Shown piece after piece: positions 28,006 through 32,423 of a stretch of 32,423 nucleotides of DNA. The notes under the pieces were generated by a model, which did not search any database, was not told the origin of the DNA, and saw only the letters and a list, made by a program, of their open reading frames with translations. The DNA comes from a virus. Its lineage: Duplodnaviria > Heunggongvirae > Uroviricota > Caudoviricetes. Within the stretch, counting starts at the first letter, position 1; each line of letters begins with the position of its first letter. The stretch lies in the IMG/VR virus record IMGVR_UViG_3300045988_079407; one strand, given 5' to 3'. Position numbers and translations under genes: made by a program.

Positions 28006-28944
28006 TTAATTACGCAGCAGCGTTGAAATATCAACGTCCAGGTCTAATTCACGGAAAGCCTGACGCAGATAATCTTCGTTAACACGCTCACCTTTACCGT
28101 GAGCCGTCATGGCGGCAAGGCGAAGTGAATGATTCAGAATGCGAAGCGCACCTGGTTTCTGCGCAATCTGCTGTAATAACTCCAGTTCTTTTTCGCCGTT
28201 AATCTGCCAGGCATCCGCAATAGCTTTTACATCGGCTTTTTTGGTTTTATTAATTGCAGTGCGCTTTGCAATACGGGAAAACAGACGGGCAAATTCAACC
28301 GTTCTGTTACCCCCCGTCATATTTGAATAAACCCGGTGATTTCCCATCAGCACAAGGCCAATACGGGTTGATTCCTGTAACAGGCGGAGTTCTTCCAGAA
28401 CTTCGGCACCAAGATGATCAGCTTCGTCGATGATAACCAGCCCTTGTGTACCTTCAAGGCGACGTCGCAGGGCGCGGGAGAGCGGCCCTTTACGGCGTGG
28501 TGCGTCATTCATTCCCAGCTCAAACGCCAGTTCAGTAAGACATTCCAGAACGCTGGCACAGGATGGCGTAATGGTGATCATCCAGACATTGTTATTGGTG
28601 CGGCGATATTCACGGGCAGCTTCGGTTTTGCCCACACCAGGATTGCCACATACAACAGCAATACTTTCAGTCAGGCTGGCAAAACGCATACTTGTCCAGA
28701 TTTGTTTTACCGTCTGCGTTTCCACAAAGCGGGGCGGTTCAGGTAGTTCTGCAACTGCATGATATTTTTCCAGCCAGCGTTGCAGAATTTGTGAAACACG
28801 CTCGTTATCCCCGTTGTACTTATCATTGATAAAACTACTGATAGTTCCGGTAGAAAGTCCGCTCTCAAGAGCAATTTGTTTAAAGGTGGTTTCTTCATTT
28901 TCTACAAGCGTGCGCAGTCCTGCGCGAATATCGGAAATATTCAT
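28006..28944 (-). CDS. B: Transposition ATPase MuB (AAA+ target-DNA activator, 312 aa)
   Basis: 312 aa with a Walker A motif (GNPGVGKTE) and Walker B motif (LVIIDEADHL) after an N-terminal HTH-like region; immediately downstream of the transposase. Confidence 0.95.
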   Translation of the reverse strand: MNISDIRAGLRTLVENEETTFKQIALESGLSTGTISSFINDKYNGDNERVSQILQRWLEKYHAVAELPEPPRFVETQTVKQIWTSMRFASLTESIAVVCGNPGVGKTEAAREYRRTNNNVWMITITPSCASVLECLTELAFELGMNDAPRRKGPLSRALRRRLEGTQGLVIIDEADHLGAEVLEELRLLQESTRIGLVLMGNHRVYSNMTGGNRTVEFARLFSRIAKRTAINKTKKADVKAIADAWQINGEKELELLQQIAQKPGALRILNHSLRLAAMTAHGKGERVNEDYLRQAFRELDLDVDISTLLRN

Positions 28945-28982
28945 CTGAATAACCTCGTAATTAAATTTTGTTTAAACGTTAA

Positions 28983-30980
28983 TTAAATGGCTTTTTTACG
29001 TCTGTTCTGTTCCAGAATATCCAGCGAATGATTCAGATATTCATCACGCTCAGTTTCGTATTCATCATCACGCTCCTGATTCTTCACTCGTTCCGTATTA
29101 CCGGAAGGCCGGAAAATGCCGACAATTCGTGATTCTGGTGCTTCAGGTTCGGCTATCTGCGGCAGCAGCTCTGCCACTTCCAGTGCATCCATTTGTTTCT
29201 GTGCCTTAATTGCTGCTTTCGTCGCAGATTTCAGTTGTTTCTGGCGGCGGCGATATTCACGGCCTGCCGCAGCATCATTAAACGCAACAGGTGCCAGACA
29301 TTCCGCTTCACAGATAAACCGACCGTCCAGGGTGTAGCAATAAACCGTGCTGTGTAACTGCTGTGGATCAAATCTGACCACAACTTTTTTCACTCCGGCA
29401 TTCATTAACGCCATGTTGTAATAAACGTTTTTCGCACCTTTAAGGGAGCCACCAACTTTAAGCGCGAACTCGCCTTTACGTGAAACGTTCACTGCCTCGG
29501 CAGGCAGTAACAGCATCCGTTTTTGCTCTTCGGTAGGCTTACGCACAATCGTTCTGGCGTATTCACGCTCAAAAACGTCATCAAACGAAAGTTTGCCTCC
29601 GCACATTTCTGTTTCACGGCCTGTTCTGGCATTGAACATCGCCACACCTTCGGCAAGGGTTTTCAGAAACAGCTCTGCATCAACAGCGCGGTCGCCATAG
29701 TTATCAGGTTTTGCCTGCGGATTAGGCCCCGTATATGCGCCAGCCAGTGCCGGATGCTTATCAACGTATTCCTCAAGCCCACCAACACCGAAAGCACGTT
29801 CAACAGGTTTTGCCTGGCCCCAGCCTTTACCGGCAACAACGCTTGTCCAGTGCATTTTCGCCCCCATCAGTAAAAACAGTCCTTTTGGATCGTCCTCTTT
29901 TACCTTAAAGCGGTAGCGATTGGGCGCGCCTCCCGTCAGCCATTTATTCGCAGCACCACGGGTGTTATCAATGGTGATGTGAAAATCCTCCGGGATACCG
30001 TAGCGAGTCACAACATCCATGAACGAGAGGCGAATTGAATCAATGTTCTCGCTCACATCGCAGCGCCAGCCCAGAATTTTTCGGGTTTTCACATCCTGCC
30101 AGAACCATGTTTTCGGACGGATCACATCACCGTTAAACCAGCGTACAAAGACGTTATGCAGATAACCGTCGCCGTTGATCCACTGCATGGCGTCCAGGTG
30201 TTCCACAGTTCGCTGCTGTGCCGGTATCAGATGCATCAGTGCATGTTCACCTTCACGACAGGCAACAACCATTGCCTCGTCCAGTTGCTGAATCCGGCGA
30301 AAGGCCGTGGCACGGGAGGGAATACTCCAGCCATGCTCGCGGGCTGCCAGTTCCAGACGCTCATAACATTTGCGGAAGGCGGGTTTTTCCGGTCGCAGAT
30401 AATCTGCAATCAGAAACTGCCAGGCATCCTCGTCAAATTCACTTTTGTGAACGTTGCGACGGGATGCACCACGTCCATCAACAAGCGCAGCCGCCCAGTC
30501 AGGCTTCGCAAACTTCTGTACCTGGTAATACTTGTCCCGCAAAGTGGATGCGCTGACCTGGTAATGCCCTGCAACGGTCGCAAAAGCCGTTTTTGTTGAA
30601 ATCCCCTGGTTCAGCATTTCGTCTGCAGCCTGAACCGCAGGCAACCATTTTTCAGCAAGTCTGCGCTGGGAATCGCTGGCGTTATCCCATTTGCTCCACA
30701 GCACCTCACGATCATAATCATGGGCTTCCAGCGTGGGGCGGGCGATTTCAAAATACCCCTGGCTTGTTTCTATTTGCTCAGATTTTAATAACAACTCAGC
30801 ACGTGCTGCCGCTGGCAGAACTGATATATGAAATTCCAAAGCCTTTGAACCCGTACGCTTGCGACGTAGTTCTGGATGATTGGCTGCAAGCTTTTCAAGA
30901 TTGCGGCGAATACTCACCTCATGTTTAGGAAAGCATGACATTCCTACGCATTCTTGCGCTGTTACCCAATGGGTTAACAT
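28983..30980 (-). CDS. A: DDE transposase MuA (665 aa from the ATG at 30980)
   Basis: ATG at 30980 ([11 protein letters not shown]) with a GGAG Shine-Dalgarno 8 nt upstream; the track's longer form starts at a TTG. The core closely matches Mu A as I recall it, but the N-terminal DNA-binding domain differs. Confidence 0.95.
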
Positions 30981-31201
30981 GATGTTTTCTCCATATACCG
31001 AGAAGGCCAAATCTGGGCTGGTTCCATATCCAAATATCTAGCAATGATTGCTTCGTATCGTGGTATATGGCAGCGAAATACGTTACGCATAGTGTCAGGC
31101 TTTAAGCCTGCCTCTCTGGATAATTGAGATAGTGTCTTCCCCTTCATACGAACAGCAGCCTTTATCTGCTCTGCGTGCCAGTCTTGGTTTTTTGCTGACA
31201 T
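30974..31201 (-). CDS. ner: Ner-like transcriptional regulator (75 aa)
   Basis: 75 aa, Ner/Nlp family (conserved IWPSRY); AAGGA Shine-Dalgarno; first gene of the early operon, divergent from the repressor. Confidence 0.85.
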
Positions 31202-31370
31202 TCTGCGATCCTTACTTTCTTAACGTTTTCGGTAACTGATACCGGCTACCGCTATCGGGAAAAACGATAGCGCAGAAAAATGCGCATTTCAAGAGCTATG
31301 CGCATTTTTATTTTAACCAATGCAAATCAAAGCATTCTGTAAAATTCTTTATATAACAGAGAGATTGAGC
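31202..31370. promoter_or_regulatory. Divergent early/repressor promoter-operator region (Pe/Pc with operators; expected site of the transposition enhancer)
   Basis: Inverted repeat cgctatcg-ggaaaa-cgatagcg (31250..31271) and two ATGCGCAT palindromes (31278..31289 as aaatgcgcattt; 31298..31305), 18 bp centre to centre; located between ner and c. Confidence 0.7.
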
Positions 31371-31979
31371 ATGACAGGTGAAAAAGAAAGCAAAAATGCA
31401 GAGCGCATTTTTATGCCATCTGAAATAATGCGTTTCAAGGAACGCCTTGAAGAGGCAATGAATGGAGAATCAAGCCGGGCGTTTGCAGCTAAGTGCGGAC
31501 TCTCTGATGGGGTTATCAGAAACTACCTGTCTGGCAAGACATACCCGTCTTTAGATCGATTAGCACAAATAGCCTACGCAACAGGGCGTCCAATAGAGTG
31601 GTTTATCCAAAGTCAGAGCATGCCAATGGTTGAGCATAAAAATACTCAAGAGAATAAAAATCCTCAACCTGACCGCAGCACATTGAAAACTAAACTGATC
31701 GCAATTGTCGAATTGTTAGAGGACAAGGAACTGCATTCTGCGATTGAGTTGTTCAGAAAGAAAGGATTTGAAGCTCTTATGCCTGAGATTTTTTCTTCCG
31801 ATGATTCCATCCAGGCTAATTTGCAAGGTATTTCGCAACAAACCTTACAAACAGCCAAAATGCTTGAATCATTACCAACAGATACTCGTAAAGAGATTTT
31901 GTCAAAGTATGGTATTTATGAACAGGAAGGTCTTGTAGCTCCTTCACAAGAACCACAAGATGTAAAAAAAGCCGTATAA
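31371..31979 (+). CDS. c: Mu-type repressor c (about 202 aa from the ATG at 31371)
   Basis: Transcribed away from the early operon. The C-terminus (KEILSKYGIYEQEGLVAPSQEPQDVKKAV) resembles the Mu repressor tail as I recall it; the N-terminal DNA-binding domain differs. Start could also be 31320 or the later MPSEIMRF. Confidence 0.8.
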   Translation: MTGEKESKNAERIFMPSEIMRFKERLEEAMNGESSRAFAAKCGLSDGVIRNYLSGKTYPSLDRLAQIAYATGRPIEWFIQSQSMPMVEHKNTQENKNPQPDRSTLKTKLIAIVELLEDKELHSAIELFRKKGFEALMPEIFSSDDSIQANLQGISQQTLQTAKMLESLPTDTRKEILSKYGIYEQEGLVAPSQEPQDVKKAV

Positions 31980-32145
31980 CAACCATGAACCAGCTAAAAC
32001 ATACTTCACCTCACATAATCACACATGTAACATACCTAAACGGCATGAGCTGATTTGTGATATGAGTCATTTGGTTACAGCCTGGTTGTTATCGGTTTTG
32101 AACGTTTTTTGAAGCTGTTATTGAAATGATTTGCAGTGTTTTTGT

Positions 32146-32423
<278 letters not shown>

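What the first reader, a model, noticed from the sequence alone, without database searches (positions are those of the whole stretch)
31202..31370. Operator candidates: an 8-bp-arm inverted repeat and two ATGCGCAT palindromes between ner and c
The divergent promoter region contains cgctatcg-ggaaaa-cgatagcg (31250..31271), then aaatgcgcattt (31278..31289) and atgcgcat (31298..31305), centred 18 bp apart. These are plausible binding sites for the repressor and/or Ner. In Mu the same region also acts as the transposition enhancer bound by the transposase N-terminal domain, which here is divergent, so protein and sites may have co-evolved.
Basis: partly seen in the sequence, partly recalled or inferred. 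Interest (0 to 1): 0.5.

Follow-up and report, generated by a model that had tools for sequence, protein, structure and literature searches.

The report
Operator set of a new Mu immunity type
The two ATGCGCAT motifs are real but belong to a larger, conserved set of repressor-binding sites in a rare Mu-like prophage whose repressor uses a different DNA-binding fold from phage Mu's, so it is an ordinary kind of switch in an uncharacterised variant.

Summary
The motifs exist. One detail is wrong: the 8-bp inverted repeat has a 7-nt spacer and spans 31250-31272.

The window's right end is the left end of a Mu/D108-type prophage. A 1.1-kb immunity module (30774-31889) has been replaced. The repressor now has an XRE/HTH_3 N-terminal domain, while the transposase keeps the Mu winged-helix domain.

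The conserved unit is not the ATGCGCAT palindrome. It is a 10-mer, AAAAATGCGC, with three exact copies in the 32.4-kb window, all within 137 bp:
- two inverted copies flank the -35 of the predicted early promoter (31276-85 and 31300-09);
- a compact pair lies inside the repressor gene (31392-31412), outside the stated range.

In 13 related loci the unit sequence changes in step at all these positions. It also changes with two residues of the repressor's recognition helix. The spacing between the site clusters stays at 116-117 or 105-106 bp.

The 8-bp repeat is lineage-specific and not significant. That zone instead holds degenerate CCG-N4-CGG repeats at the position of the D108 Ner operator.

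No binding was tested. Whether the region is also the transposition enhancer cannot be decided.

Verdict: a new variant of a known kind, of moderate interest.

The parts
30774..31889 (.). Replaced immunity module: A codons 1-69, ner, the intergenic region and c codons 1-173. It has no DNA similarity to Mu or D108.
   Evidence: blastn against Mu and D108. Flanks are 97.9% (Mu) and 99.4% (D108) identical up to 30773, and 97% (Mu) from 31890. No phage hit in megablast. Found in 2 of 5426 complete E. coli genomes.
31371..31979 (+). c repressor, 202 aa. The N-terminal domain is XRE/HTH_3 (residues about 16-80). The C-terminal part is Mu-c-like.
   Evidence: Pfam HTH_3 E=3.1e-7, above the cut-off. 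AF2 model with five helices at pLDDT 84-91. Foldseek matches to C.AhdI, P22 c2 and 434 repressor at rmsd 1.3-1.7 A. Alignment with Mu-type c in the C-terminal half.
30974..31201 (-). ner, 75 aa.
   Evidence: Pfam HTH_35 E=1.9e-25. At most 50% identical to any phage Ner in the collection.
30774..30980 (-). The 5' part of the transposase gene A, encoding the N-terminal winged-helix domain (the enhancer-binding domain I-alpha in Mu).
   Evidence: Pfam HTH_Tnp_Mu_1 E=2.1e-30. No BLASTP similarity to the window's repressor N-terminus.
31276..31285 (+). Repressor unit 'IG-left', AAAAATGCGC. It lies in the spacer of the predicted early promoter Pe.
   Evidence: Exact copy. Present at offset 73-81 from the ner ATG in all 13 relatives, with a class-specific core.
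31300..31309 (-). Repressor unit 'IG-right', GCGCATTTTT. It is inverted, starts 24 nt after IG-left and lies just upstream of the Pe -35.
   Evidence: The left and right arms change together between loci.
31392..31412 (.). Compact operator pair inside c codons 8-14: AAAAATGCAG-a-GCGCATTTTT (8/10 and 10/10 matches).
   Evidence: (I9). A perfect 21-bp palindrome in L003. It matches the locus's own intergenic unit class best in 10 of 13 loci. Its distance to IG-left is 116-117 or 105-106 bp.
31424..31433 (+). Weaker extra unit AATAATGCGT (8/10), in c codons 18-21.
   Evidence: Class-matched counterparts in L007 (ATTAGTACGC, 9/10) and in L024, L025 and L027. Seen by eye only.
31270..31285 (.). 16-bp palindrome GCGCA-GAAAAA-TGCGC around the IG-left A-tract. 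This is an alternative geometry for dimer binding.
   Evidence: Sequence. Equivalent palindromes in L006 (GCGAAT-AAAA-ATTCGC) and partly in L007, L012 and L025. Absent in L023.
31264..31292 (-). Predicted early promoter Pe: -35 TTGAAA (31292..31287), 17-nt spacer, -10 TATCGT (31269..31264). The inferred start is about 31257.
   Evidence: It is the only promoter-like site in 31100-31500. The same scan recovers Mu's Pe-like site TTTACA-17-TATCTT. It also finds one ner-strand site at the equivalent place in L004 and L012.
31223..31258 (.). Three 13-bp-spaced units of the CCG-N4-CGG type: 31223-32 ACGTTTTCGG, 31236-45 CTGATACCGG, 31249-58 CCGCTATCGG. They include a degenerate palindrome, CGGTAACTG-ATAC-CGGCTACCG (31230-31251). 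This is the putative Ner operator.
   Evidence: Alignment A3. Relatives have 9-bp-arm palindromes with compensatory changes. The position matches the D108 11-bp inverted repeat in the ner leader. By itself the window copy is weak.
31250..31272 (.). The left arm is the third CCG unit. The right arm is the Pe -10 plus 2 nt.
   Evidence: Not significant. Not conserved beyond 98% relatives.
31325..31337 (+). IHF-consensus-like AATCAAAGCATTC (1 mismatch), between the two operator clusters. A weak hint only.
   Evidence: 35% of shuffles contain such a site, and 8 of 13 relatives lack one. Mu has a perfect match at 947.

Best explanation
The region is the lysogeny/lysis switch of a third immunity type within the Mu/D108 phage group.

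Proposed mechanism:
- The XRE-type repressor recognises a 10-bp unit: an A5 tract plus the core TGCGC.
- Two inverted units bracket the -35 hexamer of the early promoter Pe. One of them fills the promoter spacer, so bound repressor should exclude RNA polymerase from Pe and shut off ner, A and B.
- A compact pair of units about 110 bp away, inside the first codons of the repressor gene, is a second operator. It most likely cooperates with the promoter-proximal units by DNA looping. It may also limit the repressor's own expression.
- The ATGCGCAT palindromes arise because this lineage's core TGCGC(A) happens to be self-complementary.
- The ner-proximal CCG-N4-CGG repeats, not the 8-bp inverted repeat as such, are the likely Ner operator.

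Shown here: motif positions, their covariation, their spacing, and the protein folds.
Inferred: binding itself, promoter activity, looping, and the assignment to Ner.
For: 1. Clustering. Three exact copies of AAAAATGCGC occur in 32.4 kb, all at 31276-31412. A 12-nt perfect inverted repeat appears in 0.04% of shuffles.

2. Conserved layout. The same layout is found in 13 loci from 5 unit classes (TGCGC, TTCGC, TACGC, TCCGC, CACGA). IG-left lies 73-81 nt from the ner ATG. IG-right starts 23-24 nt later, except in L003 (13 nt). The in-gene (ORF) pair is spaced 11 nt.

3. Covariation between sites. Left, right and in-ORF units change together. The locus's own class is the unique best match in its ORF in 10 of 13 loci and ties in 3. 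The encoded peptide changes accordingly, so protein coding does not explain the match:
   - KNAERIF in the window
   - ENSERIF in L006
   - KNMPRVF in L012
   - KNPEGII in L027

4. Covariation with the repressor. Recognition-helix residue 47 tracks unit base 7: G-G, T-T, A-A (two classes), K-C. Residue 51 tracks base 6: N or D with T, A or T with C. L023 shares only 52% of the HTH domain but has G47 and the same unit.

5. Not Ner. Window and L004/L009 have the same Ner helix-turn-helix sequence but different units. L023 has a different Ner and the same unit.

6. Spacing. The IG-left to ORF-left distance is 116-117 bp in 10 loci and 105-106 bp in 3. This holds although intergenic length ranges from 139 to 183 nt and the ORF offset from +17 to +53.

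7. Promoter. A single ner-strand promoter-like site holds the unit in its spacer in the window, L004 and L012. The same scan finds Mu's Pe-like site.

8. Fold. The repressor N-domain is an XRE five-helix fold.
Against: - No binding, transcription or looping data exist for this element or any relative.
- The loci are related, and the five classes are few, so the covariation counts are not independent events.
- The dimer geometry is unresolved. The promoter-proximal units are 24 bp apart and the in-gene units 11 bp apart. A 16-bp palindrome centred on the A-tract (31270-85) offers a third reading.
- L007 lacks a clear in-gene pair at the usual distance. L003 has a different intergenic spacing.
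- No convincing promoter for c was found.
- The IHF-like site is not significant.
- The mapping of residues 47 and 51 onto base-contacting positions of 434 repressor rests on my own alignment and memory, not on a tool result.
Confidence: 0.7

Rival explanations
1. One reading: each ATGCGCAT or AAATGCGCATTT palindrome is a self-contained operator bound by one repressor (or Ner) dimer, and the 8-bp-arm inverted repeat is a third operator.
For: Both 8-mers are perfect palindromes 18 bp apart. The 8-bp inverted repeat overlaps the predicted -10 and start of Pe.
Against: - In relatives the corresponding 8-mers are not palindromic (ATTCGCAT, GTACGCAT, AACACGAA), while the 10-mer units and their inverted arrangement persist.
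- L021, whose repressor is 100% identical, has GTGCGCAT with the unit intact.
- Two overlapping half-sites only 6 bp apart centre to centre are an unlikely dimer target.
- The 8-bp inverted repeat is absent outside 98% relatives and is expected by chance in 6.8% of shuffles.
Confidence: 0.1
2. The A-tract units are, alone or in addition, the transposition enhancer sites bound by the transposase N-terminal winged-helix domain. As in Mu, repressor and transposase would then compete for the same DNA, but here through unrelated folds.
For: - The transposase N-domain is swapped together with this region, at the same junction as between Mu and D108.
- Across relatives the N-domain groups with the repressor unit class, not with the physically interposed ner. 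L004 is 67% identical to L006/L008 and 50-55% to the window group, whereas its Ner is 85-88% identical to the window group.
- All unit classes keep an invariant A5 tract. A/T-tract repeats (GAAAAG in Mu, GATTT in D108) are also visible in the Mu and D108 operator regions.
- The two clusters about 110 bp apart resemble Mu's bipartite operator/enhancer.
Against: - The repressor and transposase N-termini share no similarity here, against 41% identity in Mu. Shared recognition would therefore need convergence.
- The tree incongruence is equally explained by a simple ner cassette exchange.
- The A-tract can be explained by conserved repressor residues or by DNA shape.
- There is no direct evidence of any kind.
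Confidence: 0.3
3. The ner-proximal palindrome and CCG-N4-CGG repeats (31223-31258) are not a Ner operator. They are either a 5' stem-loop of the early mRNA or the transposase's enhancer sites.
For: - RNAalifold gives a 9-bp hairpin with compensatory changes at 4 pairs and three G-U cells on the ner-sense strand.
- The element lies just downstream of the predicted Pe start.
Against: - The window's own leader folds no better than shuffles (z = -0.76).
- The position matches D108's perfect 11-bp inverted repeat 25-54 nt from the ner ATG. From memory, that repeat is the footprinted Ner site.
- The strand asymmetry is only 3 wobble cells against 1.
- Correlation with protein divergence cannot discriminate: Ner 0.76, I-alpha 0.71, repressor 0.69.
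Confidence: 0.3
4. The in-gene site (31392-31412) is conserved only because it encodes a conserved N-terminal peptide (KNxERIF).
For: The peptide motif N-x-E-R-I-F is nearly invariant among the closer relatives.
Against: - The peptide changes (A to S, M or P; R to G or H; I to V) exactly where the DNA must change to match each locus's intergenic unit.
- The site's offset from the start codon varies from +17 to +53, while its distance to the intergenic units is fixed.
- Residues 1-11 are modelled as disordered.
Confidence: 0.12

Closest known systems
Phage Mu operator region (O1-O3 between c and ner, with Pe, Pcm and an IHF site; doubles as the transposition enhancer)
   Same: - Same gene order: B, A, ner, then divergent c.
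- The ner-to-c spacing is identical at 169 nt if Mu c starts at its TTG.
- Repressor repeats lie over the Pe -35 region, with a second cluster about 100 bp away overlapping the first codons of c (GAAAAG repeats in Mu).
- The C-terminal half of the repressor is Mu-like, and the last about 30 codons of c are 97% identical to Mu in DNA.
   Different: - The repressor's DNA-binding domain is XRE/HTH_3, not the Mu winged helix.
- It has no similarity to the transposase N-domain.
- The unit sequence is different.
- An IHF site is not demonstrable.
- Pcm was not located.
Phage D108 immunity region (heteroimmune relative of Mu)
   Same: - Same kind of module swap with the same right-hand junction in A, at the sequence [13 protein letters not shown].
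- An inverted repeat lies in the ner leader at the same distance from the ner ATG.
- The rest of A is 99.4% identical to D108.
   Different: - The D108 repressor's N-terminus still resembles its transposase's. Basis: the title of Mizuuchi et al. 1986, as listed in the references of PMC3820752.
- Ner is only about 42% identical.
- The operator sequences are unrelated.
XRE-family phage repressors with operators (434 repressor, P22 c2, lambda cI), and the 'CI-like' c repressors of Pseudomonas transposable phages (D3112/H70 group)
   Same: - Five-helix HTH_3 fold.
- 40-46% identity of the HTH region to Pseudomonas transposable-phage repressors.
- Inverted-repeat operators with about one helical turn between half-sites in the compact pair.
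- Several operators that probably act cooperatively.
   Different: - The C-terminal part is Mu-c-like, not a LexA/S24-type domain.
- The promoter-proximal half-sites are 24 bp apart.
- One operator lies inside the repressor's own coding sequence.
- The operators are embedded in a Mu-type ner/A/B control region.
Yersinia phages vB_YpM_5 and vB_YpM_6 (cultured Mu-like phages)
   Same: - Distant homologue of the repressor (32% identity over 84% of the query) and of Ner (48%).
- By eye, the same architecture, with GAAAAAGAAAG-type repeats in the intergenic region and in the first codons of the repressor gene.
   Different: - Different unit sequence.
- The published description does not analyse operators (PMC10434027).

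Membership tests
Mu-type operator/enhancer region | Lies between divergent c and ner at the left end of a Mu-like genome, upstream of A and B. | tested here: met
   ORFs and Pfam. Mu left end at 31890-32317.
Mu-type operator/enhancer region | Repeated repressor recognition units overlap the early promoter, with a second cluster about 100 bp away. | tested here: met
   Units at 31276-31309 around the predicted Pe -35, and at 31392-31412. This is sequence-level evidence only.
Mu-type operator/enhancer region | The repressor's DNA-binding domain is homologous to the transposase N-terminal (I-alpha) domain, so both bind the same sites. | tested here: not met
   No BLASTP alignment in the window, against 41% identity and E=1e-18 in Mu. 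Pfam gives HTH_3 for the repressor and HTH_Tnp_Mu_1 for the transposase.
Mu-type operator/enhancer region | An IHF site lies between the operator clusters. | tested here: inconclusive
   One 1-mismatch consensus match at 31325. 35% of shuffles have one, and it is absent in 8 of 13 relatives.
Mu-type operator/enhancer region | The region stimulates transposition as an enhancer. | not testable with these tools
   Needs in vitro transposition or transposase N-domain binding assays.
XRE/HTH_3 repressor-operator system | The repressor has the HTH_3 five-helix DNA-binding fold. | tested here: met
   Pfam 30.8 bits against a cut-off of 23. AF2 N-domain pLDDT 84-91. Foldseek TM about 0.8 to C.AhdI, P22 c2 and 434 repressor.
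XRE/HTH_3 repressor-operator system | Operator half-sites are in inverted orientation, about one helical turn apart. | tested here: inconclusive
   Met by the in-gene pair (11 bp) and by the 16-bp palindrome at 31270-85. The two strongest intergenic units are 24 bp apart.
XRE/HTH_3 repressor-operator system | Recognition-helix residues determine operator specificity. | tested here: met
   Residues 47 and 51 covary with unit bases 7 and 6 across 5 classes. This is a correlation, not a binding test.
Ner operator (Mu/D108 type) | Repeats or inverted repeats lie in the leader between the Pe start and the ner start codon. | tested here: met
   Units at 31223-31258. D108's inverted repeat lies 25-54 nt from its ner ATG, and the window's palindrome 29-50 nt from its own.
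Ner operator (Mu/D108 type) | Bound by Ner, repressing Pe and the c promoter. | not testable with these tools
   Divergence correlations cannot separate Ner from the other proteins.

The most novel reading that the evidence does not exclude
In this Mu lineage the repressor (XRE fold) and the transposase N-terminal domain (winged helix) are unrelated, yet they still target the same composite A-tract units. The operator/enhancer duality that lets the Mu repressor block transposition directly would then be maintained by convergent recognition. Alternatively, the enhancer has moved to the ner-proximal repeats, and repressor control of transposition is purely transcriptional.
Probability: 0.25. Interest if true: 0.7.

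Novelty: new variant of a known kind. Interest (0 to 1): 0.42.

Why it matters
Mu and D108 are the textbook case in which repressor and transposase share a homologous DNA-binding domain and the same operator/enhancer DNA. Here a natural third immunity type sits in an otherwise 97-99% Mu/D108 backbone and breaks that homology. The backbone is essentially isogenic, which offers a clean system to ask two questions. Must the enhancer coincide with the operators? Does repressor need to occlude the enhancer for stable lysogeny?

The covariation also gives a simple, testable recognition rule: residue 47 pairs with unit base 7, and residue 51 with base 6. That rule could be used to design orthogonal repressor/operator pairs.

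As an operator prediction in a phage switch it is otherwise ordinary.

Tried and rejected
1. Correlating leader-DNA divergence with Ner, transposase N-domain and repressor divergence. The aim was to assign the CCG-N4-CGG repeats to one protein. The coefficients were 0.76, 0.71 and 0.69, which is uninformative. The L004 triple comparison shows only a slight trend towards Ner.

2. IHF site. One near-consensus match was found, but it is neither significant nor conserved.

3. RNA explanations. There is no Rfam match near threshold: the best is STnc40 at 22 bits against a gathering score of 45. The window's ner leader folds no better than shuffles.

4. A consensus promoter for c. None appears on the + strand. 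A relaxed scan finds a recurrent extended -10-like site over the ner ribosome-binding site. Its conservation is explained by ner coding and the ner Shine-Dalgarno sequence.

5. Metagenome and genome scans for more relatives. They added few usable loci.

6. PDB sequence search. Only weak XRE hits.

7. The closest transposase N-domain among phages. The aim was to borrow a known enhancer consensus. The best match is 48% identical, in a phage with the same repressor type, so nothing could be transferred.

8. Classical Mu and D108 operator papers (PMC339817, PMC336651, PMC4486318) are not held. Statements about footprinted Mu and D108 sites therefore rest on memory plus the sequences.

9. CCG-N4-CGG as a window-level signal. 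It is generally enriched in the window (28 against 12 expected), so a single exact copy is not evidence.

Full report
WHAT IS IN THE WINDOW

The right end of the window is the left end of a Mu-like prophage, lying inverted. The genes are B (28006-28944, -), A (28983-30980, -), ner (30974-31201, -) and the repressor gene c (31371-31979, +).

blastn against Mu and D108 shows near-identity on both sides of a replaced segment. A is 97.9% identical to Mu and 99.4% to D108 up to 30773. The 3' end of c plus the left end is 97% identical to Mu from 31890 to 32317. Positions 30774-31889 have no DNA similarity to either phage.

The replaced segment holds A codons 1-69, ner, the 169-nt intergenic region and c codons 1-173. 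The junction in A falls at the same peptide ([13 protein letters not shown]) where Mu and D108 converge. This immunity type is rare: 2 of 5426 complete E. coli genomes carry it (SE11 and N1286), and no record in the phage collection does.

CHECKING THE OBSERVATION

The two ATGCGCAT motifs are at 31280-87 and 31298-305, 18 bp apart as stated. The inverted repeat is CGCTATCG-N7-CGATAGCG at 31250-31272.

- Two ATGCGCAT in 32 kb is not unusual on its own (1.38 expected).
- They are part of a perfect 12-nt inverted repeat, AAAAATGCGCAT / ATGCGCATTTTT. Such a repeat is seen in 0.04% of dinucleotide shuffles of the intergenic region.
- The 8-bp-arm repeat is not significant. 6.8% of shuffles have one, and there are 16 such repeat centres in the window.

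WHAT THE CONSERVED UNIT REALLY IS

I collected 13 non-redundant loci encoding homologues of this repressor, 30-99% identical. All have B, A and ner, then a 139-183-nt intergenic region, then c. Laying out the intergenic regions with the first 90 nt of c shows that the ATGCGCAT palindrome is not conserved. Relatives have ATTCGCAT, GTACGCAT and similar. L021, whose repressor is 100% identical, has GTGCGCAT.

What is conserved is a 10-mer: an A5 tract plus a 5-base core. Its arrangement is fixed:
- one unit 73-81 nt from the ner ATG (window 31276-85);
- an inverted copy starting 23-24 nt later (31300-09);
- a compact inverted pair spaced 11 nt inside the first codons of c (31392-31412).

The core differs between lineages: TGCGC, TTCGC, TACGC, TCCGC and CACGA. 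Within a locus it changes at all positions together. Each locus's own class is the unique best match in its own c 5' region in 10 of 13 loci and ties in 3.

In the window the exact 10-mer occurs three times in 32.4 kb, all within 137 bp. The window's ATGCGCAT palindromes arise because the core TGCGC followed by A is self-complementary.

WHO BINDS IT

The repressor's N-terminal domain is XRE/HTH_3 by three lines of evidence:
- Pfam E=3.1e-7, above the cut-off.
- An AF2 five-helix domain with pLDDT 84-91.
- Foldseek rmsd of 1.3-1.7 A to C.AhdI, the P22 c2-operator complexes and 434 repressor.

Residue 47, the second residue of the predicted recognition helix D46-S54, tracks unit base 7 one-to-one: G with G, T with T, A with A (in two separate classes) and K with C. 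Residue 51 tracks base 6: N or D with T, and A or T with C. L023 shares only 52% of the HTH domain with the window but has G47 and the identical unit.

Ner does not track the unit. The window and L004/L009 have the same Ner helix-turn-helix sequence but different units. L023 has a 41%-identical Ner and the same unit. I therefore assign the units to the repressor.

That residues 47 and 51 correspond to base-contacting Q29 and Q33 of 434 repressor is my own alignment from memory. It is not a tool result.

HOW IT PROBABLY WORKS

The only promoter-like element in 31100-31500 lies on the ner strand: TTGAAA (31292..31287), a 17-nt spacer, then TATCGT (31269..31264). The same scan finds TTTACA-17-TATCTT in Mu where Pe is expected. 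It also finds one ner-strand site at the equivalent place in L004 and L012.

The left unit fills the promoter spacer, about -19 to -28. The right unit lies at about -43 to -52. Bound repressor should therefore exclude RNA polymerase from Pe. This step is inferred.

The in-gene pair is a perfect 21-bp palindrome in L003 (AAAAATGCGC-a-GCGCATTTTT). It lies 116-117 bp from the left intergenic unit in ten loci and 105-106 bp in three. This holds although the intergenic length varies from 139 to 183 nt and the offset from the c start codon varies from +17 to +53. A fixed distance that differs between groups by one helical turn is what cooperative binding by DNA looping would select for. This too is inferred.

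In the Mu sequence, GAAAAG repeats likewise cover the first codons of c. The ner-to-c distance is also 169 nt if Mu c starts at its TTG.

The peptide encoded over the in-gene site changes exactly where the DNA must change: KNAERIF, ENSERIF, KNMPRVF and KNPEGII. Residues 1-11 are modelled as disordered. DNA constraint therefore explains the site better than protein constraint.

Unresolved points:
- Dimer geometry. The spacings of 24 bp and 11 bp both occur, and a 16-bp palindrome GCGCA-N6-TGCGC at 31270-85 is a third reading.
- The position of the c promoter.
- L007, which lacks a clear in-gene pair.

THE 8-bp INVERTED REPEAT AND THE ner-PROXIMAL ZONE

The repeat's right arm is the predicted Pe -10 plus two bases. 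Its left arm is the third of three 13-bp-spaced units of the CCG-N4-CGG type (31223-32, 31236-45, 31249-58). The repeat is absent in every relative below 98% identity.

Relatives instead show clean CCG-N4-CGG triplets, and often a 9-bp-arm palindrome:
- L003: CGGTAGCCG-CCAT-CGGCTACCG
- L007: CGGATACCG-CTAA-CGGTATCCG

Four of its pairs carry compensatory changes. The window's copy is degenerate, CGGTAACTG-ATAC-CGGCTACCG at 31230-51.

This element lies 29-50 nt from the ner ATG. D108 has a perfect 11-bp inverted repeat, CCGTGAGCTAC-N8-GTAGCTCACGG, 25-54 nt from its ner ATG. From memory, that repeat is the footprinted Ner operator. I therefore favour a Ner operator here.

An early-mRNA hairpin or transposase binding are not excluded. 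The window leader folds no better than shuffles. Correlations with protein divergence do not discriminate. CCG-N4-CGG is generally enriched in the window, so a single exact copy carries little weight.

THE ENHANCER QUESTION

In Mu, the N-termini of c and A are 41% identical (E=1e-18). In the window the two N-termini give no alignment at all, and Pfam assigns HTH_3 to one and HTH_Tnp_Mu_1 to the other.

The transposase N-domain is nevertheless swapped together with the operators. Across relatives it groups with the repressor unit class rather than with the interposed ner. That fits functional coupling between transposase and operators. It fits equally well a simple exchange of a ner cassette.

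Where the enhancer lies cannot be decided from sequence.

COMPARISON AND NOVELTY

XRE-type repressors are known in Pseudomonas transposable phages. Their HTH regions are 40-46% identical to this one, and the records annotate them as CI-like repressors. The cultured Yersinia phages vB_YpM_5 and vB_YpM_6 have a distant version of this architecture. The paper describing them does not analyse operators (PMC10434027).

I found no paper in the held library describing this immunity region.

The finding is therefore a new variant of a known kind. It is a Mu-type switch whose operators are now defined at sequence level, with a repressor DNA-binding domain of a different fold. Interest is moderate. It lies mainly in the broken homology between repressor and transposase, within a backbone that is almost isogenic with Mu and D108.

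Noticed in passing
window 31371-31979: The repressor is a chimera. An XRE/HTH_3 N-terminal domain is joined to a Mu-c-like central and C-terminal part. The last about 30 codons are 97% identical to Mu in DNA (from 31890). Closer relatives such as L001 and L004 have a shorter, different C-terminal tail of 172-180 aa.
   Followed up: partly
window 28850-30773 and 31890-32317: The backbone is mosaic. A beyond codon 70 is 99.4% identical to D108 and 97.9% to Mu. The c 3' end plus left end is 97% identical to Mu but only 80.6% to D108.
   Followed up: partly
L004/L009 against L006/L008 and window/L001/L003: The Ner tree and the transposase N-domain tree disagree. Ner of L004 is 85-88% identical to the window group and 66-69% to L006/L008. 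Its transposase N-domain is 67% identical to L006/L008 and 50-55% to the window group. ner, with its leader, seems to be exchangeable as a cassette, while the transposase N-domain stays with the repressor/operator class.
   Followed up: partly
window 31184-31212 (+ strand): A c-sense promoter-like site, TTGGTT-17-GATCCT preceded by TG, overlaps ner codons 3-5 and the ner ribosome-binding site. It recurs in L004, L006 (TTGGAA), L007, L012 and L024. Its conservation is explained by ner coding and the ner Shine-Dalgarno sequence. If it were real, the c and early promoters would face each other about 38 bp apart across the CCG repeats. From memory, this is the arrangement in Mu.
   Followed up: partly
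window 30974-31010: The ner stop codon (30974-76) overlaps the A start (ATG at 30980) by 7 nt. The mechanical ORF list extends A to a TTG at 31010 (675 aa). Comparison with Mu, D108 and the relatives supports the ATG at 30980 (665 aa).
   Followed up: partly
window 31424-31445: AATAATGCGTTTCAAGG, in c codons 18-23, resembles the promoter-proximal AAAAATGCGCATTTCAAG (unit plus -35 hexamer). GCGTTTCAAGGAACGC is a 5-bp-arm inverted repeat that the scan flagged as terminator-like on the - strand. It is probably a by-product of the unit plus the conserved RFK(E/D)RL coding.
   Followed up: no
L003 2142-2603: One relative has an extra 153-aa ORF with no Pfam hit, on the opposite strand between ner and A. 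The two genes are separated by about 530 nt there, whereas they overlap in the window.
   Followed up: no
L037 (Yersinia phage vB_YpM_5) 1331-1560: This cultured Mu-like phage has GAAAAAGAAAG-type repeats in the intergenic region and as a compact inverted pair in the first codons of its repressor gene. This suggests that an operator inside the repressor ORF is general in this wider group.
   Followed up: partly
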